Source: Candidatus Saccharimonadota bacterium (lineage in GTDB: Bacteria; Patescibacteriota; Saccharimonadia; Saccharimonadales; UBA4665). From it: 32,000 nucleotides of DNA. Shown here in pieces: positions 17,331-32,000 of this stretch (position 1 is the stretch's first letter; every line of letters begins with the position of its first letter). The DNA lies in the NCBI GenBank assembly GCA_963716945.1, contig OY970322.1, forward strand, positions 840,001-872,000, in the 5' to 3' direction. A program made the position numbers and the translations under genes. The notes under the pieces were generated by a model. The model worked only from the letters and a program-made list of their open reading frames with translations, had not been told where the DNA came from and searched no databases.

Positions 17331-17353
17331 TTAGGCAGCCGCCGGGCGCGTTT

Positions 17354-18349: not shown

Positions 18350-18353
18350 CCTG

Positions 18354-19187
18354 TTATCCTACCACACCCTCGGCCGGCCGGGCTGCCCGAATCCGCTCAA
18401 CAATGAAACGGCTGGCCCGGACGGAAATAACGTGGCGCTCGCGAATGGTGTAGATTTTGACCTGTTTGGTATCTTTGCCGAAGATGGATTGCGGTTTGCC
18501 GCGGATGACGAGCATGTCGTAGGTGCCGTAAATAACGTCCATCGGCGCCTCCAAATATTTAATATCTTCGGCGGCGGTTTGTTCCATGATGGTGTGCTCC
18601 AGACTTTTGACGAACGGCTGCCAGGTGTCGCGGTCGACTTCGAAGCCGGCAATCCGCTGGGCCAGCCGTTCGGTCCGTTTAGCGGTTTCGGCGTCAAACG
18701 TCGGCTGGAAGCGGATCATATAGCGGAAAAACCTGGAATACAGATTAAGGCGCAGGCGGTAGCGCCGTTTGCCCGGCAGGCCCTCGTACAGCGGCATCTC
18801 ATAGAGCACCAGGTGCCTGACCAAGTCCGGCCGCAGCCGGGCGACCCGCACCGCCACCAGGCAGCCCATGGAATGGCCGACGATGATAGCCGGCCGGCCT
18901 TGAACCAATTTTTCGATACTTGCTATGACGGCCGCGGCATGGTCATCGGTCGTATAAGCCGGCCAGTCCGGCTTCGGCGAGTCGCCGAAGCCGAGCAAAT
19001 CCAAGGCGACCAAACGATAAGCCGACTGCGGCAGGCCGGCAACGACCCTCTCCCAGGTCTGGCCCGTCCGGCCGATGCCGTGCAGCAGCACTACCGGCTG
19101 TCCCTCGCCGGTGTCGATCGGCCGGGCCAGACGGTAGGGCCGCCCGAGCGTCCGATGCCAGAAGCGGTCGAAAATTTTCAGCCTCAT
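18354..19187 (-). CDS. Alpha/beta-fold hydrolase
   Basis: 277 aa with the oxyanion region VVLLHGIG and the nucleophile elbow VGHSMG. Confidence 0.85.
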   Translation of the reverse strand: MRLKIFDRFWHRTLGRPYRLARPIDTGEGQPVVLLHGIGRTGQTWERVVAGLPQSAYRLVALDLLGFGDSPKPDWPAYTTDDHAAAVIASIEKLVQGRPAIIVGHSMGCLVAVRVARLRPDLVRHLVLYEMPLYEGLPGKRRYRLRLNLYSRFFRYMIRFQPTFDAETAKRTERLAQRIAGFEVDRDTWQPFVKSLEHTIMEQTAAEDIKYLEAPMDVIYGTYDMLVIRGKPQSIFGKDTKQVKIYTIRERHVISVRASRFIVERIRAARPAEGVVG

Positions 19188-19216
19188 ACCTCTAGTATAA
19201 GCTGCTATAATTAGGA

Positions 19217-20203: not shown

Positions 20204-20983
20204 CGGCCGGGCGGTGGCCAAAGTACCGCCGGCAAATTGCTCGAATAGTTTTTCGGGCTCGCTGCCAGTCTGAAGCTTAGCGTAAGGCAAAATAGCACCG
20301 CTGAAACCCTCTGTCTGCCAATAAGCCCCGCCCGGCAGCTTAACATCGGTGAAACCGGCCGGTTCGGGATAAGCCGTCAGGTACAAATACGGCTCCGGAA
20401 TCGTTTCATCGCCGGTCGAGAAGCCCAAGCCCAACTGCCGCTCGTCGTCATGCGGGAACCACACCAGCGACAAATCGAAATGGTGCGGATAGAGCAGGAT
20501 CGGGCTGGTCACGCCTTCGCCAAGCGAGGCTTTCAGCTTCCGGAACCGTGCGTCCAGCCACCATAGCGCCTCGGCATAAGCCAGCACCTGCTCCTTATCG
20601 ACCGACAAGCCGCCGGCCTTGAACTTCGGCTCTTCCAGCTCGGCCTCGACGCCCTTGCCCGCCAGCCAGTCACGAAAGATCTGCATCGCCGCCGGCCCGT
20701 CGCAGTCTTGCAACTTCCAGTTCTGGTTGCCCAGCCGCAGTTTGCCGCGCACCAGGTCGATGCTCACCCGAATCTCTTCGCCGGCCACTATGAAAGTCTG
20801 CGTACTGATACCGCGCATCGTCACTTCCAAACCGTACTGCCACTGCCGCGGATGTTTCGGCAGGAATGCCCGCTGCAAACTGCCGATAGCCAGCGCCATA
20901 TCCCGCAGGCAATCGCGCGTCGGTCCCAGCTCGGCAGCCGCCAGCGGCGGCAATGGTTTATTCATACCGTTTAAGTTTAGCAA
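20192..20983 (-). CDS. Conserved hypothetical protein (possibly DUF5996-like, from memory)
   Basis: 263 aa with native GC. The motif YPHHFDLSLVWF recalls DUF5996-type proteins. This is unverified. Confidence 0.55.
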   Translation of the reverse strand: MLNLNGMNKPLPPLAAAELGPTRDCLRDMALAIGSLQRAFLPKHPRQWQYGLEVTMRGISTQTFIVAGEEIRVSIDLVRGKLRLGNQNWKLQDCDGPAAMQIFRDWLAGKGVEAELEEPKFKAGGLSVDKEQVLAYAEALWWLDARFRKLKASLGEGVTSPILLYPHHFDLSLVWFPHDDERQLGLGFSTGDETIPEPYLYLTAYPEPAGFTDVKLPGGAYWQTEGFSGAILPYAKLQTGSEPEKLFEQFAGGTLATARPLFD

Positions 20984-21006
20984 ACCCGGGCCGCCCGGGC
21001 TTCAAT

Positions 21007-21441
21007 TCAGGCAAAAGCCGGCACGAGCGGCGAATTAACCACGGCGCTTGCGGGTTCTTCCAAGCGCGGAATACTATAAGTTTCGCCTTCCCTCAAGTAG
21101 CCGCCGGTAACAGGCTGCTTGCCGATTCTCATCGCGTAATCGGGGACCGGCACCAATAGGCCGTTGGCGAATAAGGCTTCGGATTGGAAAAGGGTCTGCC
21201 CCTCCAGGTCGACGAAATCGAGTTTTACTACATATAAAGCCGAGGGTTCGCTCCGTTCGACGCTGCCGACCCAGACGGGATGTTCGGACGCCTCTTGGCG
21301 GTGGCGGCCCTGCCGGCCGAGCCGTAACATTGCCGAATAGAAGCCTTTGACAAGGGTGTCTGCCGTAATCGGCGGTCCGCCGTCGACGTATTCATCAAGC
21401 GAACGGTAAGTGCCGGAGTGCGCAGCTTCGGTGCTTTTCAT
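21007..21441 (-). CDS. Hypothetical protein
   Basis: 144 aa with native GC. It is co-directional with, and 23 nt upstream of, the previous gene. I recognise no motif. Confidence 0.5.
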   Translation of the reverse strand: MKSTEAAHSGTYRSLDEYVDGGPPITADTLVKGFYSAMLRLGRQGRHRQEASEHPVWVGSVERSEPSALYVVKLDFVDLEGQTLFQSEALFANGLLVPVPDYAMRIGKQPVTGGYLREGETYSIPRLEEPASAVVNSPLVPAFA

Positions 21442-21500
21442 AGCACCTTTGTTATATCATTCGACGGCTAGATTGTCCAGATTATGGTTACGCTTCAAAC

Positions 21501-21531
21501 AAAAAAGAGCCTTTTGAGGGGCTCCTTTTTG
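21501..21531. terminator. Bidirectional terminator-like hairpin A6-GAGCC-N8-GGCTC-T5
   Basis: Read directly: aaaaaaGAGCCttttgaggGGCTCcttttt. The stem is short (5 bp). It sits in a divergent intergenic region where no annotated gene ends. Confidence 0.4.
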
Positions 21532-21670
21532 TCGCGGCTTCCGCTATATGTTAGCTTGGACGCTGATCACCTCACAGTGACTAAGTACCAATATAGCCCT
21601 AGCCCAGATCCATGTCAACGCCAATCGTCCCCAGCCGTGGATAAGGCGTGTACAGATAGTGGATAAGTGA

Positions 21671-21699
21671 TTGACAGCGCCCGACCCTGAACCTATGCT
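21671..21699 (+). promoter_or_regulatory. Sigma70-like promoter TTGACA-17 nt-TATGCT for the 21736 gene
   Basis: TTGACA at 21671-21676 and TATGCT at 21694-21699, followed by a 36-nt leader with AGGA before ATG 21736. Confidence 0.5.
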
Positions 21700-21735
21700 G
21701 AAGAAGACATTAAAGCATAAGCAGGATCTTCCTCC

Positions 21736-22593
21736 ATGAAATCAACCAGACGAGACGAACGCGGCTTCGGCCACGCCGTCACCATAGTATTAGCCGTAAT
21801 CGTCATCGCCGCCATTGCCGCCATCGGCTGGCAAGTCACCAAGAAGAACAAGACGACGCCGGCCGCGACGAACACCAGTACCACCGCGGCCGTCACCAAT
21901 AGCGCCGAAGCTTCCTGTAACAAGGTCTACCACGACACCAACCTGTGTAAGTTTGCCGCCAACAGCGCCGACTTCGCCAAGACCGCTTACACCGCCGTCG
22001 ACACCAGCGTCGACGCCCAGGGCCAGACCAGCAGCATCACCATCAAATCCGACGGCAAAGGCAACACCGCCCTAACCAGCACCGCCGCCGGCCAGAGCTT
22101 CGACAGCATTGAGATCGGCACCACCGTCTATACCAAAGACCCGGCTTCCAACACCTGGACCAAGTACACCTCCAACGCCCCGGCCGTCAGCAACCCGGCC
22201 AGCGACATCAAGACCAACTTCAGCACCAGCACCACCCCGGCCGCCCAGCAGATCCAGTACAAGAACCTCGGCAAAACCGCCTGCGGCAAACTAACCTGCT
22301 TCAAGTACCAGATCATCGACCCCGCCAACGCCGGCACCACCCAGTACGCCTGGTTCGACACTAACAGCTACCGCCTCCAGGAATATTCCAGCAAAGGCAG
22401 CGACGGCAGCACCAACACCTTCGTCATAACCTACGGCGCTGTCAGCATCACCGCCCCCTCGCCCGTAACCGACGCCTCAGCCGCCGCCAGCTCCGGCACC
22501 GGCGCCTCCTCCAGCACCCCAACCGCCGCCCAAGTCCAAGCCGCCGAACAGCAGGCCGCCGCGGCTGCTGCTTCCGCCCAATCCGGTCAGTAA
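21736..22593 (+). CDS. Membrane-anchored extracytoplasmic protein, Thr/Ala/Ser-rich
   Basis: 285 aa with an N-terminal anchor (AVTIVLAVIVIAAIAAIGW), two Cys pairs and low-complexity T/A/S linkers at both ends. Native high GC. Confidence 0.7.
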   Translation: MKSTRRDERGFGHAVTIVLAVIVIAAIAAIGWQVTKKNKTTPAATNTSTTAAVTNSAEASCNKVYHDTNLCKFAANSADFAKTAYTAVDTSVDAQGQTSSITIKSDGKGNTALTSTAAGQSFDSIEIGTTVYTKDPASNTWTKYTSNAPAVSNPASDIKTNFSTSTTPAAQQIQYKNLGKTACGKLTCFKYQIIDPANAGTTQYAWFDTNSYRLQEYSSKGSDGSTNTFVITYGAVSITAPSPVTDASAAASSGTGASSSTPTAAQVQAAEQQAAAAAASAQSGQ

Positions 22594-22635
22594 TAACTAA
22601 TCCTTCTTTAGTTTGTTGAAAGCCAGTTATCTTTT

Positions 22636-23085
22636 TTATAGTGCTGGGAGTATTTTTTGCGGGAACTCATTTTCGCCAATTTTACCTTTAAGTCTGCCAT
22701 CGCTACCTGATACTGAGTATTTCTGACGCGGTCTACGTACAATCCTAATCCATTCATTAAGGCCGTGATCCTCATCCAAGGCGGCCTTTAGTTCCTGAAA
22801 ACTTAAGCATACTATTCCATCGTCGTTACAAACAAGTGCAACAAAAACTGTTTTAAACGTTTCTTGCATTCTATGTATATCATCTTGGTGGTCTTGATGA
22901 AAGGTAAAAATCCAAGGCGATAGTCGGTTAGTTGAGTGTTTTATGTATAAACCGACATTGTCATTGAGTATATAGGCTGCGTTAGCGCTCCTACAAACAA
23001 AACTTTCTACTTTGACCCCGCCTGGTACACCATGAATTAATCTCGTAAGCACAGTGCCATGAAAAAATTCATATTTATGAATCAT
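22636..23085 (-). CDS. Hypothetical 149-aa protein, tightly linked downstream partner of the Z1-domain ATPase
   Basis: Its ATG lies 3 nt after the Z1 gene stop (TAAtacATG). The alternating hydrophobic pattern suggests a small alpha/beta domain. The E6...D42...K49 (LYIKHS) spacing is loosely PD-(D/E)XK-like, but the acidic residue of the (D/E)xK motif is not evident. Confidence 0.7.
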   Translation of the reverse strand: MIHKYEFFHGTVLTRLIHGVPGGVKVESFVCRSANAAYILNDNVGLYIKHSTNRLSPWIFTFHQDHQDDIHRMQETFKTVFVALVCNDDGIVCLSFQELKAALDEDHGLNEWIRIVRRPRQKYSVSGSDGRLKGKIGENEFPQKILPAL

Positions 23086-23088
23086 GTA

Positions 23089-24972
23089 TTATTTATAGCG
23101 TCTATTTTTTAAAAATCTTATATTACCAGCTTCAGGAGCGTATTTATAGAATACTCTGGCCATTCCTTCGGGATTTTTAAAAATCTTTATGTGGTGGATG
23201 GCACGGGGAAACTTAGGCTGTTCCAGAGTGTTTTCTGCCATGAAGCCCCTAGTACGCTGGATATTTTTCACATCCGCACTTTTATAAGATACATCAAGAG
23301 CTGTGGTGCGGTGTACCGCAATAGACTCATTACCAAAAGGACTAAAGTCTCTAATAAATTCCAGCACATATAATGGTAAAGAGTCTTCAGGCAATAATGA
23401 TTTAAGCTGTTTAAGTTTTGGTGCGGAATTGATATCGCTATTTATGAGATCGTCAATTTCGGAGGTGTAAGCGAAAATTTGCCAACTCATCTCACCACTA
23501 TCGAGTGTCACATTTGTTTTATTTATGCTTGAGGATGCAGCAGCTGAAACTCGGGAATCTTCTAGCCAAACTGGGCTCCCTTGACCAGAACGTATTGCCG
23601 ATAGGGCCAGGCGGTGAAAAACAAAGCATTTCTGCCATCCTAGGTATAGTCGTTCGGGGATATGTAATTCAAAATATTCAAGATACTTACCTCTGGTGCC
23701 AAACATTCGTGCTCTCTGAATATAGGTGTCCTGTTGAATTTTATGCTTCACGTCACGTGTGAAAAACATACTAAGTAAATTCTCGAAAGTTACTCCTCTG
23801 GAAACTATATTACCCCCAATTGCTATTGTAAAAAGAGAAGACGGGCTAGTCGCTGACTTATACTCATTTGCAGCTTTATCAGAATTACTATTCATGACAA
23901 CAATGTTATTACGGCCTATGTTGGTCTTAACAAACTTGGTCAAAATGTCCTCCCTGTTAGGATAGTTTTTTAGAGCTATTTCCCAAAGACGTTTTACATA
24001 TGCCTCATATTTAGGATCATCCTCGTCTTTTAGAACATTTAATATCTTAACTACTTGTTTGTAATCTTCAGTATGATCCACTTTTTTCCCGCTAGTGTGT
24101 ACCAACATACTGTAGTTTTGTTCTTGCTCATTTTTGTAGAGATTGAGATACGCCACGTTAATCATGAAGCTTAGTAATGCATCCCTTAGATATTTTGGAG
24201 CATCATGATCTTCTGGTAATAAAACTAGCTTATACTTTAGCGTCTCTCCATTATCATCCTGGGCACCCTGTGTGGGGAAGAATTTATCTTGTCCTGTATA
24301 TAGAGGATGTGGAGGAAAATCCACCCATTTTTCGTTGTCATTTTCGAATGTATTATTTAGGTCAAGTCTGGCGGGTGTGGCAGTAACGCCAATGTAGATT
24401 CCGTCTGAACCTATTAGCTTTTCAACAAGTTCGTTAATTTTAGTTTTTTCATTTTTATTGATTTTTGCGTTTGGACTTGCATAATCAGCCTCATCATCAA
24501 TTACTACGCGCCCATGAATACGATCAATTCGTGACAAAAGCTTTTGGAGATCGCTAGAATTCTTCTTACTAAATATCACCCAATACCCTTTATTAAGCTC
24601 GACGCTTGGATCCATAATTTCATGGAACCTCTTAGGTGCCGGGTCAAGACCCGAACGCGAGAACCGCTCTAGATTTTGTTCAAGAAGTTGCACTGAATCA
24701 TTTAACAGCAAGATAATAATTTTATGCCCATCATCAAGGAGCCTTGCAGTTAGAGCAATCATCATTTCAGTCTTACCACTCTGCGGTTCACCATAAACCA
24801 CAAATGAACGAGTCGCCTGATGAACTATATTAACAATTGATTTATCTACGGCTAGCTCTATTCCGTCGGTCCAAAGCCCTTTTTTCTTTAATAACTTGAG
24901 ATTACTCTCGTAACGAAAGCTTGCATGCTCAACTGCGGCGCCTTTAAACTTGTTGATGTCAAAATCCGCCAT
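23089..24972 (-). CDS. Z1-domain protein: P-loop/DEAD-like SF2-type ATPase fused to a Z1 domain
   Basis: 627 aa with Walker A GEPQSGKT (aa 61-68), Walker B DDEAD (159-163) and VTATPARL. The Z1-type signature is GGNIVSRGVTFENL...QQDTYIQRARMFG (aa 386-425), compared with the family pattern GGxxLSRGxTxEGL...DTLxQxxRWFGYR. An SD AGAGG lies 6 nt upstream. Confidence 0.85.
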   Translation of the reverse strand: MADFDINKFKGAAVEHASFRYESNLKLLKKKGLWTDGIELAVDKSIVNIVHQATRSFVVYGEPQSGKTEMMIALTARLLDDGHKIIILLLNDSVQLLEQNLERFSRSGLDPAPKRFHEIMDPSVELNKGYWVIFSKKNSSDLQKLLSRIDRIHGRVVIDDEADYASPNAKINKNEKTKINELVEKLIGSDGIYIGVTATPARLDLNNTFENDNEKWVDFPPHPLYTGQDKFFPTQGAQDDNGETLKYKLVLLPEDHDAPKYLRDALLSFMINVAYLNLYKNEQEQNYSMLVHTSGKKVDHTEDYKQVVKILNVLKDEDDPKYEAYVKRLWEIALKNYPNREDILTKFVKTNIGRNNIVVMNSNSDKAANEYKSATSPSSLFTIAIGGNIVSRGVTFENLLSMFFTRDVKHKIQQDTYIQRARMFGTRGKYLEYFELHIPERLYLGWQKCFVFHRLALSAIRSGQGSPVWLEDSRVSAAASSSINKTNVTLDSGEMSWQIFAYTSEIDDLINSDINSAPKLKQLKSLLPEDSLPLYVLEFIRDFSPFGNESIAVHRTTALDVSYKSADVKNIQRTRGFMAENTLEQPKFPRAIHHIKIFKNPEGMARVFYKYAPEAGNIRFLKNRRYK

Positions 24973-25079
24973 CGCATACCTCTTTCAATTAAGATATTTT
25001 TATGCCTTTAATACTAGCATCTTTTCAGATTATAAAAATGAAATGTCAATTCTTCTTTAGTGCAAGTATAATGATCTAA

Positions 25080-26258
25080 GTGAAAATTAAGCATATTCAT
25101 CCTTTCCCTGCCCGTATGGCTCCCGAGATAGCTCTTGATGAATGCAACAAACTACAGAAGGGATCAACCATTCTCGATCCAATGTGTGGATCTGGAACAA
25201 CCCTACGAATGGCGATTAAGTCAAGCATGAACGCCATAGGAAGTGATTTAGATCCTCTTGCAGTGCTAATAGCAACCGTAGGCACAACTTATCTGGATGA
25301 GGATACAGTAGTTAAAGTCGCTCAAGATGTGGTCTCTAAAGCCCGGCTGCTTTCGTTAAAAGAGACTCGTCTGCCATGGATAGACACCGATCAAGAGACG
25401 AAAGCTTTTATAGACTTCTGGTTTGCAAAAAAACAGATTAACGATCTACGTAAGATTGTCACTATTATATTTAGAGATTATGAATCAGAAACTCAGTCTT
25501 TTCTCAAGATTGTAGTAAGTCGCCTAATAATCACAAAAGATATGTCCGCGTCGCTAGCTAGAGACACATCTCATAGCAGGCCGCACCGAATCTCTTTAAC
25601 CAATGACTATGACGTTTTTGCCAATTATATAAAATATGCTAAGCAAGTAGCACAACGGCTGCCTAAAGAACCTACGTCCTTAGTGAAAGTAAGTCGTAGT
25701 GATGCTAGGCAACTAAATGACATCGCTGATAATTCAATTGATGCTGTCATTACATCTCCACCATACTTGAACGCCATAGACTACATGCGAGGTAATAAGC
25801 TCTCTCTAGTATGGCTTGGCTATAAAGTCAGTGACTTACGTTATGTTAGAGGCATTAGTATTGGCGCAGAAAAGAGACTACAGGAATCTATAGATCAAGG
25901 ACTTCTATCACGATTAACAAAGGACATGCATTTTTATAAAGACCTAGGAAGCCCTCATAAAGGTATGTTCGAGCGATATATGATTGATATGCTCGCATTA
26001 ATGAAAGAGGTCAGGAGAGTGCTAAAGCCAGGTAGTAAGGCAACATTAGTTGTAGGTAATTCATGCTTGCGAGGAACTTTCATTAAAAATACTACGGCAG
26101 TTATCTCAGCTGCAGAAATACTAGGTTTTAAATTCTTAGATGAAGTTGCTCATGAGCTACCTCAAAATATGCGATATCTTCCAACTCCGGCAAGTAGCCA
26201 AAAAACACCTCTATCAAAACGAATACGTACTGAGTCAATCCTTTATTTTAGCAAATAA
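25080..26258 (+). CDS. DNA amino-methyltransferase (N4-cytosine or N6-adenine), SPPY motif
   Basis: 392 aa with SAM motif I ILDPMCGSGTT (aa 31-41) and catalytic motif IV DAVITSPPY (aa 221-229), separated by about 185 aa (alpha-like order). A VLKPGSKATLVVGNS motif follows motif IV. The only in-frame start is GTG 25080, directly preceded by a stop. Confidence 0.85.
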   Translation: MKIKHIHPFPARMAPEIALDECNKLQKGSTILDPMCGSGTTLRMAIKSSMNAIGSDLDPLAVLIATVGTTYLDEDTVVKVAQDVVSKARLLSLKETRLPWIDTDQETKAFIDFWFAKKQINDLRKIVTIIFRDYESETQSFLKIVVSRLIITKDMSASLARDTSHSRPHRISLTNDYDVFANYIKYAKQVAQRLPKEPTSLVKVSRSDARQLNDIADNSIDAVITSPPYLNAIDYMRGNKLSLVWLGYKVSDLRYVRGISIGAEKRLQESIDQGLLSRLTKDMHFYKDLGSPHKGMFERYMIDMLALMKEVRRVLKPGSKATLVVGNSCLRGTFIKNTTAVISAAEILGFKFLDEVAHELPQNMRYLPTPASSQKTPLSKRIRTESILYFSK

Positions 26259-28123
26259 CCTATGTCGCATACGCTATCTAAATAATGCTGTGTCTCCGCA
26301 TCTACCGAATGCACATAACAGCCTTTTTGGCCGCGGGTCATGAGAGTTCGATAGGTGTTCTTTATAATCTGGTCGGCGAGTGCTTCGGCTGCTGCTGGAT
26401 CTTCTGCATGCATCTTCTTATAGCCATGGACCGACTTGTCAGAGCCAGCGCGTTTGGTGGCGTCAGTGATAATTCTGCCGTTGCGGACTATTAAGTCTGG
26501 ACCGATAATTACGCCCACATAGTCCATTTCAAGACCTTGGCAGGTGTGGATGCAGCCGATTTCGTTGACTGCATCAGGCTTCAAAATCCATAAATTACCA
26601 TCGCTAGCTAAGTTCCAGCGCATGGCAAAATCATACTCGTCTATGATAACGTCTTTAACCTGGCCTGTTCGATCATTCTTGCTCTGCCATTTCCAGCAAT
26701 AGCCGGCAACAAGTCGTGCCTTATTTGCTATCTTATTCTTTTCAAAAATTAGATCGCGCAGCTCATTGGGATTATTTATAACCTTAAAATCGTAATCGAT
26801 TCCGGCCATGGTTTCGTTTGCCGTTTCGTGAATCTGGAGAGTGTTATCTAGCCAAGCTAAATAGCCGTCCGAGCCATTGCAGCGAAACTGGGATTCAAGA
26901 ATTAGCTCTTGGGTCTTTGCTCCAATCTGGAAGGCCCACATTTTTATTTCCTCGCTCTCACCGATGTCTTTCAGCGTTACTTTCTGGTCTTCGTCTAGGA
27001 AGAAAATACTAAACTTGGATGATTCTATGATTTCTTTAATCTGATTTTCGCCTTTGTTTTGATACATGCCTGACTTGGCGTTCAGGCGGTGCGCTTCATC
27101 GACTATAAGAGCATCAAATAAGTTGGGCTTCGTTTCTGTGAACGAGCCTGACCCGCTAAACAAATTGCTTATATGGCTCTTGCGGAAACTTTTTGTTAAC
27201 TTGCTTTCGTAAACATCGCGCGGCGCGGCATTTCTAGTGACATACTTCGTTAGCAACTGCTTTTTTGTAAGCTCGACCAGAAGATTTATTGCTACTACGG
27301 ACTTACCCGTGCCGGGCCCACCTTGTACGATCAAGACGTTTTTATTATTGACAGTTGATTGCTCCGCTAGCTTAAGAGCAGTTTCATAAACCACTTTTTG
27401 GTCATCTATCATAAGAAATTCTTGATTGCCTTGCAGCATTGAGTCGAGCTTGTCGGCCAGATTCTTGGATGGCTTAATCTTGCCATGGTCAATGCGATAC
27501 ATGACCTGATCCTTATCGCCGTACTTAACATTGGCTTTTATAAACTCTCGGAGCTTCAAGGCATCCGGCTTAAGAAATACCGGCGCCTTATCCGTATAGT
27601 CCTTATAAAACTCATTGGTGATAACGTCATCCTGTTCATAGTTGTGTAGATAGGCACATGGGTGTAGTTGAATATGTTCTTCGTGTACTGTTTGATTAAA
27701 GTCTTCAAGCAAGCAGGCGTAAGTCCACGCTTGGTAAGAAGGATGGGAGACTTCCCTTTCGGCTCGGCCGACATAGCTGACAACAATGCCATCCTTATCA
27801 CTTAAGGTCGCTTCGCTCCATTGTTTTAATTCAATCAGAATGGCAGCATCTTGACGCTTGGCGTTCTTGCCGGCAATTATGAAGTCGATCCTCTTTGACG
27901 ATTGCGGAATGTGATATTCGATCGCTATTTCGGTGTTTTGTGATATTTCATCATCTTCCAAAACTCTGTACATGTACTGCATGGAGTTTTCCCAAGATCT
28001 TATTTCACTCATGCTCGTTTTGTGACCGGTGGCTTTTTTAAAGGCTCTATGGACTATGTCACCGATGTCATTAGACATTACGTCCTTCATGAAGTCCTCT
28101 TTTGTAGAGGTGTATACAATCAC
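26243..28123 (-). CDS. DUF2075-type protein: N-terminal PD-(D/E)XK nuclease-like domain plus SF1-like P-loop ATPase (Schlafen-helicase-like)
   Basis: 626 aa. Nuclease-like residues are E69, D80 (RIDFII) and E98-L-K100 (ILIELKQW). It has Walker A GGPGTGKS (268-275) and Walker B IVDEAHRL (340-347). Family-typical motifs are ESQFRCNGSDGYLAWL and HTCQGLEMDYVGVIIG. The GTG start overlaps the MazG-like stop. Confidence 0.85.
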   Translation of the reverse strand: MIVYTSTKEDFMKDVMSNDIGDIVHRAFKKATGHKTSMSEIRSWENSMQYMYRVLEDDEISQNTEIAIEYHIPQSSKRIDFIIAGKNAKRQDAAILIELKQWSEATLSDKDGIVVSYVGRAEREVSHPSYQAWTYACLLEDFNQTVHEEHIQLHPCAYLHNYEQDDVITNEFYKDYTDKAPVFLKPDALKLREFIKANVKYGDKDQVMYRIDHGKIKPSKNLADKLDSMLQGNQEFLMIDDQKVVYETALKLAEQSTVNNKNVLIVQGGPGTGKSVVAINLLVELTKKQLLTKYVTRNAAPRDVYESKLTKSFRKSHISNLFSGSGSFTETKPNLFDALIVDEAHRLNAKSGMYQNKGENQIKEIIESSKFSIFFLDEDQKVTLKDIGESEEIKMWAFQIGAKTQELILESQFRCNGSDGYLAWLDNTLQIHETANETMAGIDYDFKVINNPNELRDLIFEKNKIANKARLVAGYCWKWQSKNDRTGQVKDVIIDEYDFAMRWNLASDGNLWILKPDAVNEIGCIHTCQGLEMDYVGVIIGPDLIVRNGRIITDATKRAGSDKSVHGYKKMHAEDPAAAEALADQIIKNTYRTLMTRGQKGCYVHSVDAETQHYLDSVCDIGYLLK

Positions 28124-28473
28124 TTGTCTAGGTCCGTATATTTCTTGTGATTGCCTTTGGCTTTTTTGACTGGGTATTTTGCTGCGTTTTTCTCCATTTT
28201 TTTCTTAAGAGCGGTCGGCAAATCGATTTTTAAATCATTAGCCAGCAGCAACACCCAGTAAAGAACGTCGGCTAATTCATCGCTTACGTCATCAATGTGC
28301 TCGCTTAGATGTTGCTGTATTTCCTGTTTGTCTTTCCATTGAAAATGTTCAAGCAGTTCGCCAGCCTCTAGTACGAGTGAAATAGCTACATCTTTTGGGT
28401 TATGGAATTGTTGCCAATCGCGAGCATCACGAAACTCAATAATTTTTTGCTGCAACTCCCTCAAATCGCTCAT
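28120..28473 (-). CDS. MazG-like all-alpha nucleoside triphosphate pyrophosphohydrolase
   Basis: 117 aa with FRDARDW..FH.PKD...L.LEAGELLEHFQW (the EExxE-type metal site) and SDELADVLYWVLLLAN (the ExxD site). It is first in a two-gene operon. An extended -10 TGTTAATAT (28491-28483) lies 9 nt upstream of the ATG. Confidence 0.85.
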   Translation of the reverse strand: MSDLRELQQKIIEFRDARDWQQFHNPKDVAISLVLEAGELLEHFQWKDKQEIQQHLSEHIDDVSDELADVLYWVLLLANDLKIDLPTALKKKMEKNAAKYPVKKAKGNHKKYTDLDK

Positions 28474-28517
28474 ATTAACTGAATATTAACACTTTTTAAT
28501 CTGTTTTGGAACGGTTG

Positions 28518-29549
28518 TTACTTAGCTTTAGACCGATATTCTTCTGTAATCGCATAATGCAGCCCGACGAGCAGAGCCAAGTTGACGAGGAACCCGGGGA
28601 TGGCGCCGAATTGGATGCGGGAGAAGACGAAGAATTGGGTTAGTAATAGGTTGATTAGGACGGCGCGGCGGAAGAGTTCGAAGGCTTCGAGGCGGGAGCT
28701 TAGGATTCTCAGGGCGCCGGTGACGGCGAAGAAGCCGGCGACGGCCGACGTGATTAGCTGGCCGACGATTAGGCGGTTGGCGTAGGAGTCGTGGGCCTGG
28801 AAGATCGAGTGCAGGTCGTCGAAGTTGTTGAAGACGGTGGCCAGCGTGATGACCAGGAAGACGGCGGCCTGGGCAATGAACAGCGTGCCGACTACGCGGC
28901 TGGAGGCGCGGTTGTGCCAGAAGCGTTCGTAGCGTTTGTCGGCGGCGGTCAGGAAACGCTGGAAGCGGTTGGGTTCGGGCGGCGGGACGGTGTCGAGACG
29001 GGCCAGCAGTTTTTTCAGCTCCTGGGTGATCGGGCTATGCGGGTCGGATTTGGCTAACAGCTGGTCGATCTTGCGCTTGTCGGCGCTGTTGAGGTTCTTG
29101 AGCACGGCTTCTTCGAGTTGGGCCAGGGCGTTCAGTTCGTACTCGTGCTGCGTCAGACGGTTGGGCCGGCTGAGGAAGTTGAAGGTCAGGTAGAGGATGA
29201 TGAAAATGGCGTAAATCAGGCCGATCGTCGGGCGGAAGAAGTAGTTGTTATCCTTGGTCAGGAATTTGCCTAGCTCGTCGATGAACACGCCGAAGCCGGC
29301 ACCGCCCAGGAAGGCCGATATCCGCTGTACCCTGGCCCCTAGGAACGACAGGTTCAGCGTCAGGGCGACCAGCATCAATAAGCCGCCGTAAAGCATGTGG
29401 GCGATGTGGAGGTTGCCGCCGCCGACCTGCGGGTAGCCGGTGATACTCAGGAAGAAGCGCAGCAGCAGCACGGCGCTGATCGCCGAAACCAGGAAAATCT
29501 CCAGGTGGTCGCGGGCGCGGACATTGCGGTAGAAGAGCTTTTGTGACAT
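28518..29549 (-). CDS. Hypothetical polytopic membrane protein
   Basis: 343 aa with about 7-8 hydrophobic helices split by a roughly 90-aa helical cytoplasmic insert. Native GC, except for an AT-richer last ~15 codons next to the island. Confidence 0.7.
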   Translation of the reverse strand: MSQKLFYRNVRARDHLEIFLVSAISAVLLLRFFLSITGYPQVGGGNLHIAHMLYGGLLMLVALTLNLSFLGARVQRISAFLGGAGFGVFIDELGKFLTKDNNYFFRPTIGLIYAIFIILYLTFNFLSRPNRLTQHEYELNALAQLEEAVLKNLNSADKRKIDQLLAKSDPHSPITQELKKLLARLDTVPPPEPNRFQRFLTAADKRYERFWHNRASSRVVGTLFIAQAAVFLVITLATVFNNFDDLHSIFQAHDSYANRLIVGQLITSAVAGFFAVTGALRILSSRLEAFELFRRAVLINLLLTQFFVFSRIQFGAIPGFLVNLALLVGLHYAITEEYRSKAK

Positions 29550-29602
29550 CTGGCTATTAGTATAGCCGATGCGGGTCTAAGTTCAGCGGGCGGTCAAAAG
29601 AT

Positions 29603-30190
29603 CTAGCCCCAGGGCGTAACCGGAACCGCGGTCGCGGGGTTGTCACCGCTGCTAGGCGCAAGATAATCGACGGCTACTTCCATGGCGCCGAGGAAAAGCG
29701 TGTCAATCGCGTGGGCGACTTCTTCTTCGTTAGCCCGCCTGGTCGTGTCGGCGTCGACGGCGCGGCCGAGCGTCAGCAGCGAACGGACGTTTTCGCGGAC
29801 ATGGGTCTGGAGTTCGCCGCTGTCCGGGTCTTCATCGGCGTATACCGTCTTGCTAACGGTATAGATACCGGGGGCCAGGCCTCGTCTTAATAAGAACTTG
29901 CGTTCCCTGGTTATGGCATGGGCGGCGGCCATCCCCAGCGGGGCTTCGTCCGCCGGACCCATCCAGCGGCGCTCTTCATCGGTCTGAAGCGTGACGACTA
30001 CGTCGCGCCCGCCTTGCTTGATGATGCGGCTAAAACCGGCTGATTCCGGCCGGCCTTCGGGGCGCAGCGTTTCGATGAGATTCACGAAGTTGCTGGTGGC
30101 AATCGGCGACGCCAGCACCTTAATGCCGCGGCTGGACTTTAAGCCCGGTCGCTCCAGTGAACCTCCATAACTTTCCGCGTCGTAACTCAT
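29603..30190 (-). CDS. Hypothetical protein
   Basis: 195 aa with native GC. It is preceded by a canonical promoter. I recognise no motif. Confidence 0.6.
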   Translation of the reverse strand: MSYDAESYGGSLERPGLKSSRGIKVLASPIATSNFVNLIETLRPEGRPESAGFSRIIKQGGRDVVVTLQTDEERRWMGPADEAPLGMAAAHAITRERKFLLRRGLAPGIYTVSKTVYADEDPDSGELQTHVRENVRSLLTLGRAVDADTTRRANEEEVAHAIDTLFLGAMEVAVDYLAPSSGDNPATAVPVTPWG

Positions 30191-30199
30191 AATATCCTT

Positions 30200-30228
30200 A
30201 TTCTATTACATTACTTTGGATTTGTCAA
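30200..30228 (-). promoter_or_regulatory. Sigma70-like promoter TTGACA-17 nt-TAGAAT, 9 nt upstream of ATG 30190
   Basis: Minus-strand reading: TTGACA (30228-30223), a 17-nt spacer, TAGAAT (30205-30200), aaggatatt, then ATG. Confidence 0.55.
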
Positions 30229-30264
30229 GTATTAGCTCGTCAGCTGACAGGGGTAAGGTGAGAT

Positions 30265-32000
30265 TCAGCGCTTGCGCTTCTTGGGGTCGAGTTCACGCTT
30301 GCGCAGACGCAGGCTCTTCGGCGTTACCTCTAATAATTCGTCGTTTTCGATGAAGTCGAGGCATTGTTCGAGGCTGAGTATAGTCGGCGGTGTCAGTTGG
30401 ACCGTGCCGTCGGAGGACGAACTGCGCATGTTGGTCAGGTGCTTGGCCTTGCAAACGTTGATTTCCATGTCTTCCTGGCGGGTGTTGAGGCCGATAATCT
30501 GGCCGGCGTAAATCTTCTCGGCCGGACCGATGAAGATCGTACCGCGGGCCTCGGCCGTTTCCAGGGCGTAAGGCGTGGTGGTGCCGGTCTCGAACCCGAT
30601 CAGCACGCCGTTGCGCAGCTGCTGCAGGGCGGCGGTTTGCGGCTGCGAACCGATAACCAGGCTGTTCATGACGATCGTGCCCTTGGTGTTGGTCAGCAGG
30701 ATGTTGCGCATACCGAGCAGGGCGCGGGTCGGCATCTCGTAGATCAGCTTGGTCACGCCTTTGGAGGCCGAAGTGAATTGTTCCTTGAGGGTCGCCCGGC
30801 GCTGGCCGAGTTCCATCTGGACGGTACCGACGTGTTCGGCCGGGACTTCGATGATAACTTCTTCGACCGGCTCCATGGTTTGGCCGTTTTCTTCGTGGGT
30901 AACGACCTGCGGCCGGCCGACTTCGAACTCGTAGCCTTCGCGGCGCATGGTTTCGATCAGGACGCCGAGGTGCAGTTCGCCGCGGCCGGCGACCGTGAAG
31001 CCGATGCCGTCTTCTTCGACCTGGAGGCCGACGTTGGTTTCCAGTTCTTTGTCGAGGCGGCCGGCGATCTGGCGCGAGGTATTGAATTCGCCTTCCTGTC
31101 CCTTGAACGGGCTGGTGTTGGGGCCGAGGTAGATCCTCAGCGTCGGCGCTTCGACTTCGATAACCGGCAGGGCTTCCGGCTGTTCGGCGTCGGCGACGGT
31201 TTCGCCGATCTGGGCGTCGGCGATGCCGGTCAGCTGGACGATGTCGCCGGCCACGCCTTCCGGCACTTCGAACTTCGACACGCCGTGGCTCATGAAGACG
31301 TTGTCGACTTTGGCTTTGGTTTGGGTCCCGTCTTTTTTGCACAGCACGACCTGGTCGCCGGGTTTGACCCGGCCGCGGGTGATGCGGCCGATGGCGTATT
31401 TGCCCTTGAAAGTATCGCTGGCCAGGGCCGTTACCAGCATCTGGAAAGGCTTGTCGAGCTCGACGCTCGGTGCCGGGACGTGTTCGATAATGGCTTGGAA
31501 AATGGCTTCCAGGTCGCCCTTGGCTTCCGCGTCCTGCGGCGGCTCGCTCCAGGCTTTGCCGGCCCGGCCGATGGCGTAATAAACCGGGTAGTGCAGCTGG
31601 TCCTCGTGGACGGCCAGCTCCAGGAACAAGTCGGCCAGCTCGTCTTCGACTTCTTTGATGCGGGCGGCGTCCTTGTCGATTTTGTTAATGATAACTATCG
31701 GCTTGAGCTCGCTCTCCAGCGCCTTCTCAAGCACGAACTTGGTCTGCGGCATCGGACCTTCCTGGGCGTCGACAATCAGGATGCAGCCGTCGGCCATGTT
31801 GAGCGTCCGCTCGACCTCGCCGGAGAAATCGGCGTGGCCCGGCGTGTCGATAATGTTGATGCGGTAGTCATCGTGCTGGACGGCCGTGACTTTGGCGGTA
31901 ATCGTAATCCCCCGCTCCTTCTCCTGGTCGCCGCTGTCCATAATCAGCTCCTGGTTCATTTCGGCCTGATTGTCGCGGAAAGTCTGCGACTGCTTGAGCA
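30265..32000 (-). CDS. typA: Translational GTPase TypA/BipA (N-terminus lies beyond the right edge)
   Basis: G-domain motifs ERGITI, DTPGHADF and NKIDK, followed by EF-G-like domains and a basic C-terminus. The frame stays open upstream of the track's Met to the window edge (…LKQSQTFRDNQAEMNQELIMDS…), as in BipA homologues. Confidence 0.95.
   Translation of the reverse strand, partial: LKQSQTFRDNQAEMNQELIMDSGDQEKERGITITAKVTAVQHDDYRINIIDTPGHADFSGEVERTLNMADGCILIVDAQEGPMPQTKFVLEKALESELKPIVIINKIDKDAARIKEVEDELADLFLELAVHEDQLHYPVYYAIGRAGKAWSEPPQDAEAKGDLEAIFQAIIEHVPAPSVELDKPFQMLVTALASDTFKGKYAIGRITRGRVKPGDQVVLCKKDGTQTKAKVDNVFMSHGVSKFEVPEGVAGDIVQLTGIADAQIGETVADAEQPEALPVIEVEAPTLRIYLGPNTSPFKGQEGEFNTSRQIAGRLDKELETNVGLQVEEDGIGFTVAGRGELHLGVLIETMRREGYEFEVGRPQVVTHEENGQTMEPVEEVIIEVPAEHVGTVQMELGQRRATLKEQFTSASKGVTKLIYEMPTRALLGMRNILLTNTKGTIVMNSLVIGSQPQTAALQQLRNGVLIGFETGTTTPYALETAEARGTIFIGPAEKIYAGQIIGLNTRQEDMEINVCKAKHLTNMRSSSSDGTVQLTPPTILSLEQCLDFIENDELLEVTPKSLRLRKRELDPKKRKR

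What the first reader, a model, noticed from the sequence alone, without database searches (positions are those of the whole stretch)
26243..28473. Translationally coupled MazG-like NTP pyrophosphohydrolase plus DUF2075 nuclease-helicase pair as a candidate nucleotide-targeting immune module
The MazG-like ORF ends in TGA overlapping the GTG start of the DUF2075 ORF (GTGA at 28120-28123). This implies co-translation and a functional pair.

The DUF2075 protein combines a clear PD-(D/E)XK-like triad (E69, D80, E98-x-K100) with Walker A/B and SF1-type C-terminal motifs. This is the same helicase type found in the C-terminus of eukaryotic Schlafen proteins.

All-alpha MazG/dCTPase-like enzymes hydrolyse canonical or modified (d)NTPs. 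Joining an NTP-degrading enzyme to a nuclease-helicase suggests one of two mechanisms. One is dNTP-pool depletion or sanitising of modified phage nucleotides coupled to DNA degradation. The other is generation or removal of a nucleotide signal. As far as I know, no characterised defence system has this composition. Single-protein nuclease-helicases such as Nhi or Hna are only architectural analogues.
Basis: partly seen in the sequence, partly recalled or inferred. Interest (0 to 1): 0.8.

Follow-up and report, generated by a model that had tools for sequence, protein, structure and literature searches.

The report
Conserved MazG–nuclease-helicase defence gene pair
A small dCTP-pyrophosphatase-like gene and a Schlafen-type nuclease-helicase gene overlap by four bases and travel together across many bacterial phyla. 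They look like an undescribed two-gene variant of the known Nhi-type anti-phage nuclease-helicases, but what the small enzyme contributes is untested.

Summary
A 117-aa MazG-like gene (28120-28473, minus strand) ends in a TGA that overlaps the GTG start of a 626-aa DUF2075/Schlafen-group-3 helicase gene (26243-28123). Homologues begin MIVYxxTK, so the GTG is the real start rather than the ATG at 28090.

The pairing is not local:
- 64 of 80 homologous loci from many phyla carry a MazG-like gene beside the helicase on the same strand. 16 of these overlap by 4 or 1 nt.
- About 60% of 70 informative MazG-like loci from metagenomes are followed by a DUF2075 gene.
- Identity matrices of the two proteins correlate (Mantel r 0.51).

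The pair sits in a low-GC island at a hotspot downstream of typA. The cargo next to it differs between related genomes.

The small protein belongs to the DCTPP1/RS21-C6 family. The large one shares its helicase domain with Nhi and AbiO and is closest to the PADLOC candidate PDC-S41. Its N-terminal nuclease assignment rests on invariant motifs only; fold searches were not significant.

The same MazG-like family also occurs alone and upstream of HNH, NOV_C and GIY-YIG nucleases. This favours a generic nucleotide-pool-cleaning accessory over a signalling enzyme.

No paper in the library describes the pair. Verdict: a real, conserved, probably defensive module and a new variant of a known kind. 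The mechanism is inferred.

The parts
28120..28473 (-). MazG-like / DCTPP1-family NTP pyrophosphohydrolase gene, 117 aa. It consists of the catalytic core only.
   Evidence: ORF. Pfam PF12643 at 4e-20. A profile of the family matches PDB 4qgp at 1e-25 and mouse/human DCTPP1 at 2e-24. Catalytic and pocket residues are conserved.
28267..28368 (-). Codons of the metal-binding motifs E36-x-x-E39-x-x-E42 and D65-E66-x-x-D69.
   Evidence: Invariant in alignment A2 and in 63-64 of 64 DUF2075-linked copies.
28120..28123 (-). GTGA. The TGA stop of the MazG-like gene overlaps the GTG start of the DUF2075 gene.
   Evidence: Sequence. The same 4-nt overlap (ATGA or GTGA) occurs in 14 related loci and a 1-nt overlap in 2. 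N-terminal conservation in homologues supports this start.
26243..28123 (-). DUF2075 / Schlafen-group-3 nuclease-helicase gene, 626 aa.
   Evidence: ORF. Pfam PF09848 at 6e-104. PADLOC PDC-S41 at 1e-16, AbiO at 3e-12, Nhi at 2e-11. More than 8000 homologues.
27389..28123 (-). N-terminal domain (aa 1-245), a putative PD-(D/E)XK/RecB-like nuclease. Invariant residues are E69, D80, E98-L-K100-Q101, H127, Q131-x-x-x-Y135, H160 and N161.
   Evidence: Invariance shown. AF2 model has pLDDT 80.8 and pTM 0.82, with D80 and ExK on consecutive strands. Best fold matches are nucleases but not significant: EndoMS at E 0.24 and a NERD protein at E 0.03. No Pfam hit. The domain is found only at the N-terminus of this architecture, in 2556 clusters.
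26300..27343 (-). SF1-type helicase domain (aa 261-608). Walker A GGPGTGKS lies at 27299-27322 and Walker B DEAH at 27089-27100.
   Evidence: Pfam stretch 261-608. Motif invariance. Foldseek top hits are SLFN11, RecD2, Dna2, nsp13 and Upf1.
28474..28517 (-). 44-nt gap to the upstream same-strand host gene (343-aa membrane protein). No sigma-70-like site was found, so the pair may be read through or may use a non-consensus promoter.
22600..28500 (.). Low-GC island (0.39-0.44, against about 0.60 in the flanks). It holds the pair plus a Z1-ATPase/methyltransferase unit.
   Evidence: Composition profile. The island genes are a Z1/ResIII ATPase at 23089-24972 (-), an N6_N4 methyltransferase at 25080-26258 (+) and a 149-aa ORF at 22636-23085 (-).

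Best explanation
**What it is**
A horizontally spread, two-gene conflict (anti-phage) module.

**The effector**
- It is the 626-aa protein: an N-terminal metal-dependent nuclease-like domain joined to a Schlafen/DUF2075 SF1 helicase.
- This is the Nhi / Nhi-like / AbiO type of enzyme, which loads on and degrades invader DNA using ATP.

**The accessory**
- The upstream, translationally coupled 117-aa protein is a DCTPP1-type all-alpha NTP pyrophosphatase.
- Its most likely job is to hydrolyse non-canonical pyrimidine dNTPs, such as 5-methyl-, 5-hydroxymethyl- or otherwise 5-substituted dCTP, to the monophosphate.
- That would do two things. It would stop modified nucleotides, whether made by a phage or salvaged from degraded phage DNA, from entering host DNA, keeping the host chromosome from becoming a substrate of a modification-sensitive nuclease. 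It would also starve phages that build their DNA from modified dCTP.

**Shown here**
- Gene structure and family memberships.
- Conserved catalytic residues.
- Conserved linkage and co-variation of the two genes.
- Island and hotspot context.

**Inferred**
- Nuclease activity.
- Defence function.
- Substrate preference of the pyrophosphatase.
- The logic connecting the two proteins.

**Confidence by part**
- About 0.7 that this is a conserved two-gene defence-type module.
- About 0.3 for the specific pool-sanitiser role.
For: **Linkage**
- 64 of 80 loci from many phyla carry the pair on one strand. 16 have overlapping stop/start codons.
- In the reciprocal test, 41 of 70 informative MazG-like loci are followed by a DUF2075 gene.
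- Mantel r is 0.51, with 0 of 2000 permutations reaching it.

**Defence context**
- The island is low in GC.
- In three related genomes the pair is likewise flanked by low-GC cargo that differs between them: in two (L168, L171) at the same site next to the p343 homologue downstream of typA, and in L169 also downstream of typA but with other low-GC genes in between and no p343 homologue. The cargo is a Z1+MTase unit here, an SDH_protease gene, a BubE/ThiF/Multi_ubiq set with SocA_Panacea, and a Zeta/HSDR_N_2 set.
- Among 136 immediate neighbours of the 80 loci are HNH_2 (6), Fic (5), AbiEi (4), RhuM (4), type IV REase-like PLD-helicase-DUF3427 (3-4) and NERD (3).
- PADLOC hits are PDC-S41, AbiO and Nhi.

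**Effector**
- Nuclease-like and helicase motifs are invariant.
- Sister subfamilies carry a GIY-YIG nuclease in the same N-terminal position.

**Accessory**
- It belongs to the DCTPP1 family, with catalytic residues and W20, H24, W46 and Y72 conserved.
- The same MazG-like family sits upstream of HNH and NOV_C nucleases.

**Modified-DNA theme**
- Phages escape Nhi-like defence by losing a DNA methylase.
- DUF2075 genes neighbour DUF3427-DUF3883 modification-dependent enzymes.
- A Priestia plasmid has the arrangement DUF3578-MazG-DUF2075 inside an RM island.
Against: - There is no experimental evidence for any step.
- The N-terminal nuclease fold was not confirmed. There is no Pfam hit, Foldseek E-values are 0.03-0.24, and hhalign against a NERD protein was negative.
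- 12-16 of 80 loci lack MazG, so it is dispensable for many family members.
- MazG-like relatives at about 72% identity stand alone in ordinary contexts.
- About 19 of 70 metagenome loci show no coupled partner at all. Linked and unlinked copies are intermixed. The enzyme may therefore be a generic housekeeping function.
- The Nhi-like protein with the methylase-escape phenotype is not shown to be a close relative of this protein.
- The island itself encodes a DNA methyltransferase, which would have to make a mark the nuclease ignores.
- No relatives were found in IMG/VR viral contigs. That says nothing either way about defence.
Confidence: 0.45

Rival explanations
1. Regulated dNTP depletion plus DNA degradation. 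In this reading the MazG-like enzyme is itself an effector. It is held in check by, or activated through, the helicase, and on infection it collapses the dCTP or wider dNTP pool while the nuclease-helicase degrades phage DNA. The logic resembles Gabija or the dCTP deaminase and dGTPase defences.
For: - Tight translational coupling and co-variation suggest a complex.
- Nucleotide depletion is an established defence strategy, and Gabija couples nucleotide hydrolysis with DNA nicking (abstracts).
- MazG-like domains have been proposed as NTP-targeting effectors in rare PUA-HAD systems.
- DefensePredictor lists MazG among predicted defence domains.
Against: - The protein is a 117-aa catalytic core with no sensor or regulatory domain.
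- Near-identical family members exist unpaired and with several unrelated partners. That is hard to reconcile with a toxic enzyme needing a specific keeper.
- Many family members work without it.
Confidence: 0.15
2. A DNA-damage or replication-stress module rather than immunity. The nuclease-helicase processes damaged or stalled replication intermediates, in the way Dna2 or SLFN11 do. The MazG-like enzyme removes damaged dNTPs. The genes are mobile because such functions are accessory.
For: - About half of the family carries a complete LexA-like self-cleaving S24 domain, with the AAG site, GxSM and a Lys. This points to RecA-ssDNA sensing.
- RadC-like JAB genes are inserted or adjacent in several loci.
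- Fold matches include Dna2 and SLFN11.
- MazG/DCTPP1 enzymes are classical house-cleaning enzymes.
Against: - Distribution is patchy, and identity is about 60% across phyla and into archaea.
- The GC content is foreign, and the cargo next to the pair varies between relatives.
- Neighbours are rich in restriction, Abi and toxin genes.
- RecA-ssDNA sensing is equally compatible with sensing phage replication.
Confidence: 0.15
3. Operon hitch-hiking. The MazG-like gene is an ordinary house-cleaning gene that is simply co-transcribed with the nuclease-helicase, and the two products have no functional interaction.
For: - The family also occurs alone.
- Linked and unlinked copies do not form separate clades.
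- 12-16 of 80 helicase loci lack it.
Against: - Chance or neutral adjacency does not explain several findings. There is 80% linkage across more than ten phyla. Gene order and 4-nt overlaps are retained. The gene reappears on the other side in the Halomonas group. The two proteins co-vary. MazG is recruited in parallel to HNH, NOV_C and GIY-YIG nucleases.
Confidence: 0.12
4. Nucleotide-signal control. The MazG-like enzyme makes or destroys a signalling nucleotide, for example (p)ppGpp or a phage-made or system-made messenger, that switches the nuclease-helicase.
For: - MazG-family enzymes hydrolyse diverse NTP-like molecules (background knowledge).
- Nucleotide signals control several defence systems (abstracts).
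Against: - The closest characterised relatives are dCTP and modified-dCTP pyrophosphatases, with the binding-pocket residues conserved.
- No cyclase, sensor (CARF, SAVED and the like) or other signal-making partner is conserved in the neighbourhood.
- The enzyme has promiscuous partners.
Confidence: 0.05

Closest known systems
Nhi (S. epidermidis SERP2475), Nhi-like (Millman et al. 2022) and AbiO: single-protein nuclease + DUF2075 helicase defences
   Same: - Same domain order: an N-terminal nuclease-type domain followed by a DUF2075 SF1 helicase.
- PADLOC Nhi (2e-11) and AbiO (3e-12) models match the helicase region.
- Same defence-island habitat.
   Different: - The matches cover only residues about 234-416. 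The N-terminal domain is not detectably related.
- Those systems are described as single genes. Here a MazG-like gene is coupled in about 80% of family members.
PADLOC candidate PDC-S41
   Same: - It is the best PADLOC match (1e-16) and covers the N-terminal domain plus Walker A (residues 3-296).
- The large protein therefore falls in or near an already listed defence candidate.
   Different: - It is listed as a single-gene candidate and is unvalidated.
- The MazG-like partner has no PADLOC model.
Eukaryotic Schlafen group III proteins (SLFN11, SLFN14 and others)
   Same: - The helicase domain is homologous: Pfam SLFN-g3_helicase at 6e-104, and the top Foldseek hit is human SLFN11.
   Different: - Schlafens have an N-terminal tRNA/rRNA endoribonuclease core, not this domain.
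- They have no MazG partner.
DCTPP1 / RS21-C6 (mammalian dCTP pyrophosphatase 1) and archaeal 4qgp pyrophosphatase
   Same: - E-values of 1e-25 to 2e-24 over the whole domain.
- The metal-binding EExxE...ExxD residues and aromatic pocket residues are conserved.
- DCTPP1 prefers dCTP and 5-modified dCTP.
   Different: - The bacterial enzyme's substrates are unknown.
- DCTPP1 is a stand-alone housekeeping enzyme, not an operon partner of a nuclease.
Dna2 / AddAB-type nuclease-helicases
   Same: - A RecB-like nuclease motif set (D...ExK...QxxxY) sits with an SF1 helicase in one chain.
- Dna2 is among the fold matches.
   Different: - There is no significant sequence or fold match for the nuclease domain.
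- The biological role differs.
Gabija (GajAB), and the dCTP deaminase and dGTPase depletion defences
   Same: - These provide a conceptual precedent for combining nucleotide hydrolysis with DNA cleavage, or for using pool manipulation as defence.
   Different: - The proteins are unrelated.
- Depletion there is triggered by infection. Here the enzyme is a bare house-cleaning-type core.

Membership tests
MazG-like / DCTPP1 all-alpha NTP pyrophosphohydrolase | Profile match above the curated threshold | tested here: met
   PF12643 scores 72.2 bits against a cut-off of 27. PF03819 scores 32 bits against 22.
MazG-like / DCTPP1 all-alpha NTP pyrophosphohydrolase | Metal-binding EExxE ... ExxD motif | tested here: met
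   E36, E39, E42, E66 and D69 are invariant in A2 and in 61-64 of 64 linked copies.
MazG-like / DCTPP1 all-alpha NTP pyrophosphohydrolase | Similarity to solved DCTPP1/RS21-C6 structures across the domain | tested here: met
   4qgp at 1.3e-25; 6sqw and 2a3q at 2e-24. Aligned residues run 4-115.
MazG-like / DCTPP1 all-alpha NTP pyrophosphohydrolase | (d)NTP pyrophosphohydrolase activity and preference for 5-modified dCTP | not testable with these tools
   This needs enzyme assays.
DUF2075 / Schlafen group 3 helicase (PF09848) | Full-length profile match | tested here: met
   348.6 bits against a cut-off of 24, covering profile positions 1-354 of 354.
DUF2075 / Schlafen group 3 helicase (PF09848) | Walker A, Walker B and SF1 motifs, plus an SF1B-like fold | tested here: met
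   GGPGTGKS, DEAH, Q380, Q412, R414, R592 and R597 are invariant. Foldseek hits are SLFN11, RecD2, Dna2 and nsp13 at E 1e-7 to 1e-5, though the model's pLDDT is only 64.
PD-(D/E)XK (RecB/NERD-like) nuclease | D ... (D/E)xK catalytic motif on consecutive beta strands | tested here: met
   D80 lies on strand 78-86 and E98-L-K100 on strand 92-100 of the model. These residues are invariant in 79 of 79 sequences. A Q131xxxY135 motif follows.
PD-(D/E)XK (RecB/NERD-like) nuclease | Significant sequence-profile or fold match to a known member | tested here: inconclusive
   No Pfam hit even at E 10. Best PDB match is EndoMS at E 0.24. Best BFVD match is a NERD protein at E 0.03 and TM 0.45. hhalign against a NERD protein was negative.
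Nhi / AbiO defence proteins | Full-length homology to the family model | tested here: not met
   PADLOC Nhi (41 bits) and AbiO (44 bits) align only to residues 234-416, the helicase core. The protein shares the architecture and the DUF2075 domain but is not a member of the Nhi family proper.
Anti-phage defence system (generic) | Location in variable defence islands or hotspots | tested here: met
   The island is low in GC. The cargo beside the pair varies between relatives. Neighbours are defence-type genes.
Anti-phage defence system (generic) | Protection against phage on expression | not testable with these tools
   This needs plaque assays.

The most novel reading that the evidence does not exclude
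Self/non-self discrimination maintained at the level of the nucleotide pool. In this reading a DCTPP1-type enzyme is the 'immunity' half of a modification-sensing nuclease-helicase, and of HNH, NOV_C and GIY-YIG nucleases elsewhere. It destroys modified dCTPs so that the host chromosome never acquires the mark that the nuclease attacks. At the same time it denies hypermodified precursors to phages. This would be a new organising principle for type-IV-like restriction. It would also be a bacterial antecedent of the DCTPP1 and Schlafen functions seen in animals.
Probability: 0.2. Interest if true: 0.85.

Novelty: new variant of a known kind. Interest (0 to 1): 0.62.

Why it matters
- Nuclease-helicases with the Schlafen-type DUF2075 domain are validated anti-phage proteins, but their triggers and self-protection are poorly understood.
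- This work shows that one large, cross-phylum branch of the family is almost always co-encoded, often translationally coupled, with a dCTP-pyrophosphatase-like enzyme. The same enzyme is also recruited by other nucleases.
- That gives a concrete, testable link between nucleotide-pool sanitation and DNA-targeting immunity.
- It supplies a natural test case for MazG as a defence domain, which has been predicted but never validated.
- It brings together in one operon the bacterial relatives of two mammalian genome-guardian proteins, DCTPP1 and Schlafen.

Tried and rejected
- **Start codon.** I tested whether the ATG at 28090 is the true start. It is not: homologues conserve the 11 residues upstream.
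- **Nuclease fold.** I tried to confirm the N-terminal fold in several ways.
  - The full-length AF2 model was too poor (pLDDT 64), and its matches were dominated by the helicase.
  - The domain model was good (pLDDT 81) but gave no significant PDB or BFVD match.
  - A permissive Pfam scan and hhalign against a NERD neighbour were negative.
- **PDB sequence search.** The helicase family profile found nothing.
- **A universal third gene.** Clustering 534 neighbour ORFs found none. TPR, RadC, HNH_2 and other genes recur only in subsets.
- **A DUF2075-specific MazG clade.** The nearest-neighbour test showed linked and unlinked copies intermixed.
- **Shared N-domain.** hhalign showed no relation between the other MazG partners and the DUF2075 N-domain.
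- **Phage origin.** No relatives were found in IMG/VR. There was only one strong hit among GenBank phages, a 22-kb Microcystis record.
- **Integration signatures.** There is no tRNA, Rfam hit, flanking repeat or convincing promoter or terminator around the pair.
- **Source organism.** The cluster look-up gave no name for it.
- **Literature.** No paper combines DUF2075 or Schlafen with MazG in this sense.

Full report
**1.

The window carries two ORFs on the minus strand:
- A 117-aa ORF at 28120-28473.
- A 626-aa ORF at 26243-28123 that begins with GTG.

The + strand reads tcac at 28120-28123. The coding strand therefore reads GTGA, with the stop of the first gene inside the start of the second.

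The public gene call for this protein (P0001, 615 aa) uses the ATG at 28090. Homologues of 617-624 aa begin MIVY(S/T/A)xTK, and Y4, K8 and F11 are invariant. The GTG is therefore the real start and the overlap is real.

Family assignments:
- The small protein matches MazG-like PF12643 at 72 bits against a cut-off of 27.
- The large protein matches SLFN-g3_helicase (DUF2075, PF09848) at 349 bits against a cut-off of 24.

**2. The setting is a low-GC island at a hotspot**

- The pair lies at one end of an island of about 6 kb with GC 0.39-0.44. The surrounding genome is at about 0.60.
- The rest of the island holds a Z1/ResIII ATPase, an N6/N4 DNA methyltransferase and a 149-aa ORF. PADLOC labels the first two 'Helicase_II' and 'MTase_II'.
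- I examined three genomes of the same lineage, with TypA 87-93% identical to the window's.
  - The same pair is present, with the helicase protein 78-92% identical.
  - In two of them it sits at the same site, next to the homologue of the 343-aa membrane-protein gene downstream of typA.
  - It again has low GC, 0.41-0.47.
- The genes on the other side of the pair differ between these genomes:
  - an SDH_protease gene;
  - a BubE/ThiF/Multi_ubiq set with a SocA_Panacea gene;
  - Zeta-toxin and HSDR_N_2 genes plus two large unknown proteins.
- The pair is therefore a self-contained unit sitting beside a variable-cargo hotspot. It does not depend on the Z1/methyltransferase genes.

**3. The pairing is conserved**

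*Starting from the helicase.* A scan of one genome per species with a profile of the helicase family returned 80 loci. They come from Proteobacteria, Bacteroidota, Nitrospirota, Verrucomicrobiota, Elusimicrobiota, Planctomycetota, Chloroflexota, Patescibacteria and other groups.
- An HMM search of all six-frame ORFs found a MazG-like gene beside the helicase gene in 64 of 80 loci, always on the same strand.
- It lies upstream in 56 loci and downstream in 8.
- Several of the 16 negative loci have too little flanking sequence to tell.
- In the 55 upstream cases measured, the gaps are as follows:

| Gap between MazG stop and helicase start | Loci |
|---|---|
| -4 nt | 14 |
| -1 nt | 2 |
| 2-3 nt | 13 |
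| 5-30 nt | 19 |
| 40-72 nt | 5 |
| about 700 nt (a RadC-like JAB gene is inserted) | 2 |

*Starting from MazG.* The reciprocal scan of metagenome contigs with a MazG-like profile gave 70 informative loci.
- 41 of these have a DUF2075 gene immediately downstream.
- Some are from the same subfamily, at 55-65% identity.
- Others are from divergent subfamilies, at 30-40% identity.
- Others again are GIY-YIG-DUF2075-S24 proteins.

*Co-variation.* Pairwise identities of the two proteins across 62 pairs correlate, with Mantel r 0.51. None of 2000 permutations reached that value.

A MazG-like gene is at most one of a few thousand genes in a genome. This degree of linkage cannot be chance.

**4. The large protein**

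*Helicase half.*
- Walker A (GGPGTGKS, K274), DEAH (342-345) and further SF1 motifs are invariant in 79-80 of 80 sequences.
- A full-length AF2 model is mediocre, with pLDDT 64. Its best structural matches are human SLFN11, RecD2, Dna2, coronavirus nsp13 and Upf1, which are SF1B-type helicases.
- The PDB holds no sequence relative.

*N-terminal 245 residues.*
- They model well on their own, with pLDDT 80.8 and pTM 0.82.
- Invariant residues are E69, D80, E98-L-K100-Q101, H127, Q131-x-x-x-Y135, H160 and N161.
- D80 and ExK lie on consecutive strands, as in PD-(D/E)XK enzymes.
- From background knowledge, the D...ExK...QxxxY pattern resembles RecB-family nucleases.
- Independent confirmation failed:
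  - No Pfam hit, even at E 10.
  - The best PDB fold match is EndoMS at E 0.24.
  - The best viral match is a NERD protein at E 0.03 and TM 0.45.
  - hhalign against a NERD protein was negative.
- I therefore treat 'nuclease' as likely but not shown. One supporting point is that sister subfamilies carry a GIY-YIG nuclease in the same position.
- The N-domain occurs only at the N-terminus of this architecture. It is found in 2556 clusters at 50% identity.

*Relation to known defence proteins.*
- PADLOC places the protein nearest to candidate PDC-S41 (1e-16, residues 3-296).
- It gives partial, helicase-only matches to AbiO (3e-12) and Nhi (2e-11).
- Nhi is itself a PD-(D/E)XK + DUF2075 protein. 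Millman's Nhi-like protein has the same layout without sequence similarity to Nhi.
It is fair for Hna, which is SF2.

**5. The small protein**

- A profile of the family matches an archaeal pyrophosphatase (4qgp, 1e-25) and mouse/human DCTPP1/RS21-C6 (2e-24) over the whole domain.
- The EExxE and ExxD metal ligands are conserved. So are R18, W20, H24, W46, Y72 and Y100.
- The bacterial protein is only the catalytic core. It has no sensor or regulatory domain.

**6. The MazG-like gene is a promiscuous accessory**

- A 72%-identical relative stands alone in an ordinary context.
- Of the 28-29 metagenome loci without DUF2075, about nine have another tightly coupled downstream gene.
  - One such family, of 320-370 aa, has a shared N-terminal region and either an HNH or a NOV_C (DUF3883-type) nuclease domain.
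  - A second unknown family also occurs.
- Linked and unlinked MazG-like sequences are intermixed by nearest neighbour.
- On the other side, 12-16 of 80 helicase loci lack MazG.
- I read this as one generic enzymatic activity recruited repeatedly by DNA-cutting conflict proteins. It does not look like a specialised signalling partner.

**7. Neighbourhoods**

No third gene is universal. The 136 nearest neighbours of the 80 loci include:
- HNH_2 (6), Fic (5), RhuM (4), AbiEi (4) and NERD (3);
- PLD-ResIII-DUF3427 proteins that PADLOC calls type IV methyl-directed restriction enzymes (3-4);
- RadC (3);
- TPR proteins of about 650 aa, coupled upstream (4).

A Priestia plasmid has the arrangement DUF3578-MazG-DUF2075 inside a restriction island. 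The family reaches archaeal plasmids. It is essentially absent from viral collections.

**8. Mechanism**

*Shown.*
- The pair is a real, conserved, mobile two-gene unit in defence-type surroundings.
- Both proteins keep their catalytic residues.

*Inferred.*
- The large protein is the effector. It is an ATP-driven nuclease-helicase that degrades invader DNA, by analogy with Nhi.
- For the small protein I favour sanitising the pool of 5-modified dCTPs. Four points support this:
  1. Its closest characterised relatives do exactly that.
  2. A bare, apparently constitutive enzyme with free-living near-identical relatives is unlikely to be a toxic pool depleter.
  3. It accompanies several kinds of nuclease.
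  4. The DUF2075 world has links to modified DNA. Phages escape Nhi-like defence by losing a DNA methylase. DUF2075 genes sit beside DUF3427-DUF3883 modification-dependent enzymes.
- Such an enzyme would keep salvaged or phage-made modified nucleotides out of host DNA, preventing self-attack. It would also starve phages that use modified dCTP.

*Confidence.* I give about 0.7 to 'conserved two-gene defence-type module' and about 0.3 to this specific role.

*Rivals.*
- Regulated dNTP depletion.
- A DNA-damage-response module. This is supported by complete LexA-like S24 domains on about half the family.
- Neutral operon hitch-hiking.
- Control of a nucleotide signal.

**9. Novelty**

- No paper in the library combines DUF2075 or Schlafen with MazG.
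- MazG appears only as a predicted, unvalidated defence domain in DefensePredictor, and as a rare effector in PUA-HAD systems.
- The large protein falls in or near a listed single-gene candidate, PDC-S41.
- I therefore class the finding as a new variant of a known kind: Nhi-type nuclease-helicase immunity with a dedicated NTP pyrophosphatase partner.
- It is interesting mainly because the linkage is so broad and because it suggests a testable link between pool sanitation and DNA-targeting immunity.

Noticed in passing
L001-L080 long forms, e.g. L039:5992-8391 and L033:6001-8397; also P0024 and P0038: About half of the family (38 of 79) is roughly 800 aa long and carries a C-terminal Peptidase_S24 (LexA/UmuD-like) domain. 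In most of these the Ala-Gly cleavage site (..AAG..), the GxSM serine motif and a conserved Lys are retained. That suggests RecA-ssDNA-triggered self-cleavage. The window's protein is the short form without this domain.
   Followed up: partly
L091:401-1372, L113:1817-2809, L098:4324-5388, L085:4348-5322, L129:4339-5457; also L086:562-1659 and L128:948-2060: MazG-like genes that lack a DUF2075 neighbour are often translationally coupled to proteins of 320-370 aa. These share an unknown N-terminal region and end in either an HNH or a NOV_C (DUF3883-type) nuclease domain. A second unknown partner family also exists.
   Followed up: partly
L100:677-2812, L135:547-2571: Divergent DUF2075 proteins downstream of MazG-like genes carry a GIY-YIG nuclease domain at the N-terminus and an S24 peptidase at the C-terminus. 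The nuclease has been swapped within the same architecture.
   Followed up: partly
L012:5295-5993, L061:5314-5997, L087:4345-5019 (between the two genes); L034:7913-8593, L062:4854-5585, L076:7917-8624 (downstream): In several loci a RadC-like JAB domain gene is inserted between the MazG-like and DUF2075 genes, or follows the DUF2075 gene with an overlap.
   Followed up: no
L007:3638-5587, L042:263-2221, L073:3686-5668, L030:4238-5536, L165:2629-4647: In a subset of loci a TPR-repeat protein of about 650 aa is encoded immediately upstream of the MazG-like gene, overlapping or nearly so. One example is the 22-kb record named Microcystis phage Mwe-JY31. This may be a three-gene variant.
   Followed up: no
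window 22636-26258: The rest of the island holds a Z1/ResIII ATPase (23089-24972, -) with a 149-aa ORF starting 3 nt after its stop (22636-23085, -; no family hit). It also holds a divergently oriented N6_N4 methyltransferase (25080-26258, +). The 3' end of the methyltransferase gene overlaps the 3' end of the DUF2075 gene by 16 nt, and no terminator is predicted between these convergent genes.
   Followed up: partly
L168, L169, L171 compared with window 17000-32000: The region downstream of typA/bipA is a variable-cargo hotspot in this lineage. The MazG-DUF2075 pair is constant. The adjacent genes change: a Z1+MTase unit, an SDH_protease gene, a BubE/ThiF/Multi_ubiq set with SocA_Panacea, or a Zeta-toxin/HSDR_N_2 set with 1356-aa and 441-aa unknown proteins.
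   Followed up: partly
L167:3548-6866 (Priestia aryabhattai plasmid NZ_CP083270.1): Here a DUF3578 gene overlaps the start of the MazG-like gene, and DUF2075 follows. The arrangement is flanked by a restriction endonuclease, MutT, a type I RM system and an ABC-three-component system. From memory, DUF3578 is a McrB-N-like reader of modified DNA; I did not check this.
   Followed up: no
window 1500-3000: A second low-GC patch (about 0.42) holds two ORFs: 1710-2171 (no family hit) and 2172-2783 (DUF6338). It may be another small acquired insert.
   Followed up: partly
window 21736-22593 (+): This 285-aa ORF has a strongly skewed composition (GC skew about -0.25) and degenerate 27-30-nt direct repeats. 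It gives only weak DUF4307 and DUF6215 hits. It sits at the island boundary and is also present in L081.
   Followed up: no
window 28090-28123: The public gene call for the DUF2075 protein (P0001, 615 aa) starts 11 codons too late, at the ATG. This hides the stop/start overlap with the MazG-like gene in automated annotation.
   Followed up: yes
window 28474-28517: Only 44 nt separate the MazG-like gene from the upstream same-strand host gene, and no sigma-70-like site was found there. The foreign pair may be transcribed by read-through from a host gene.
   Followed up: partly
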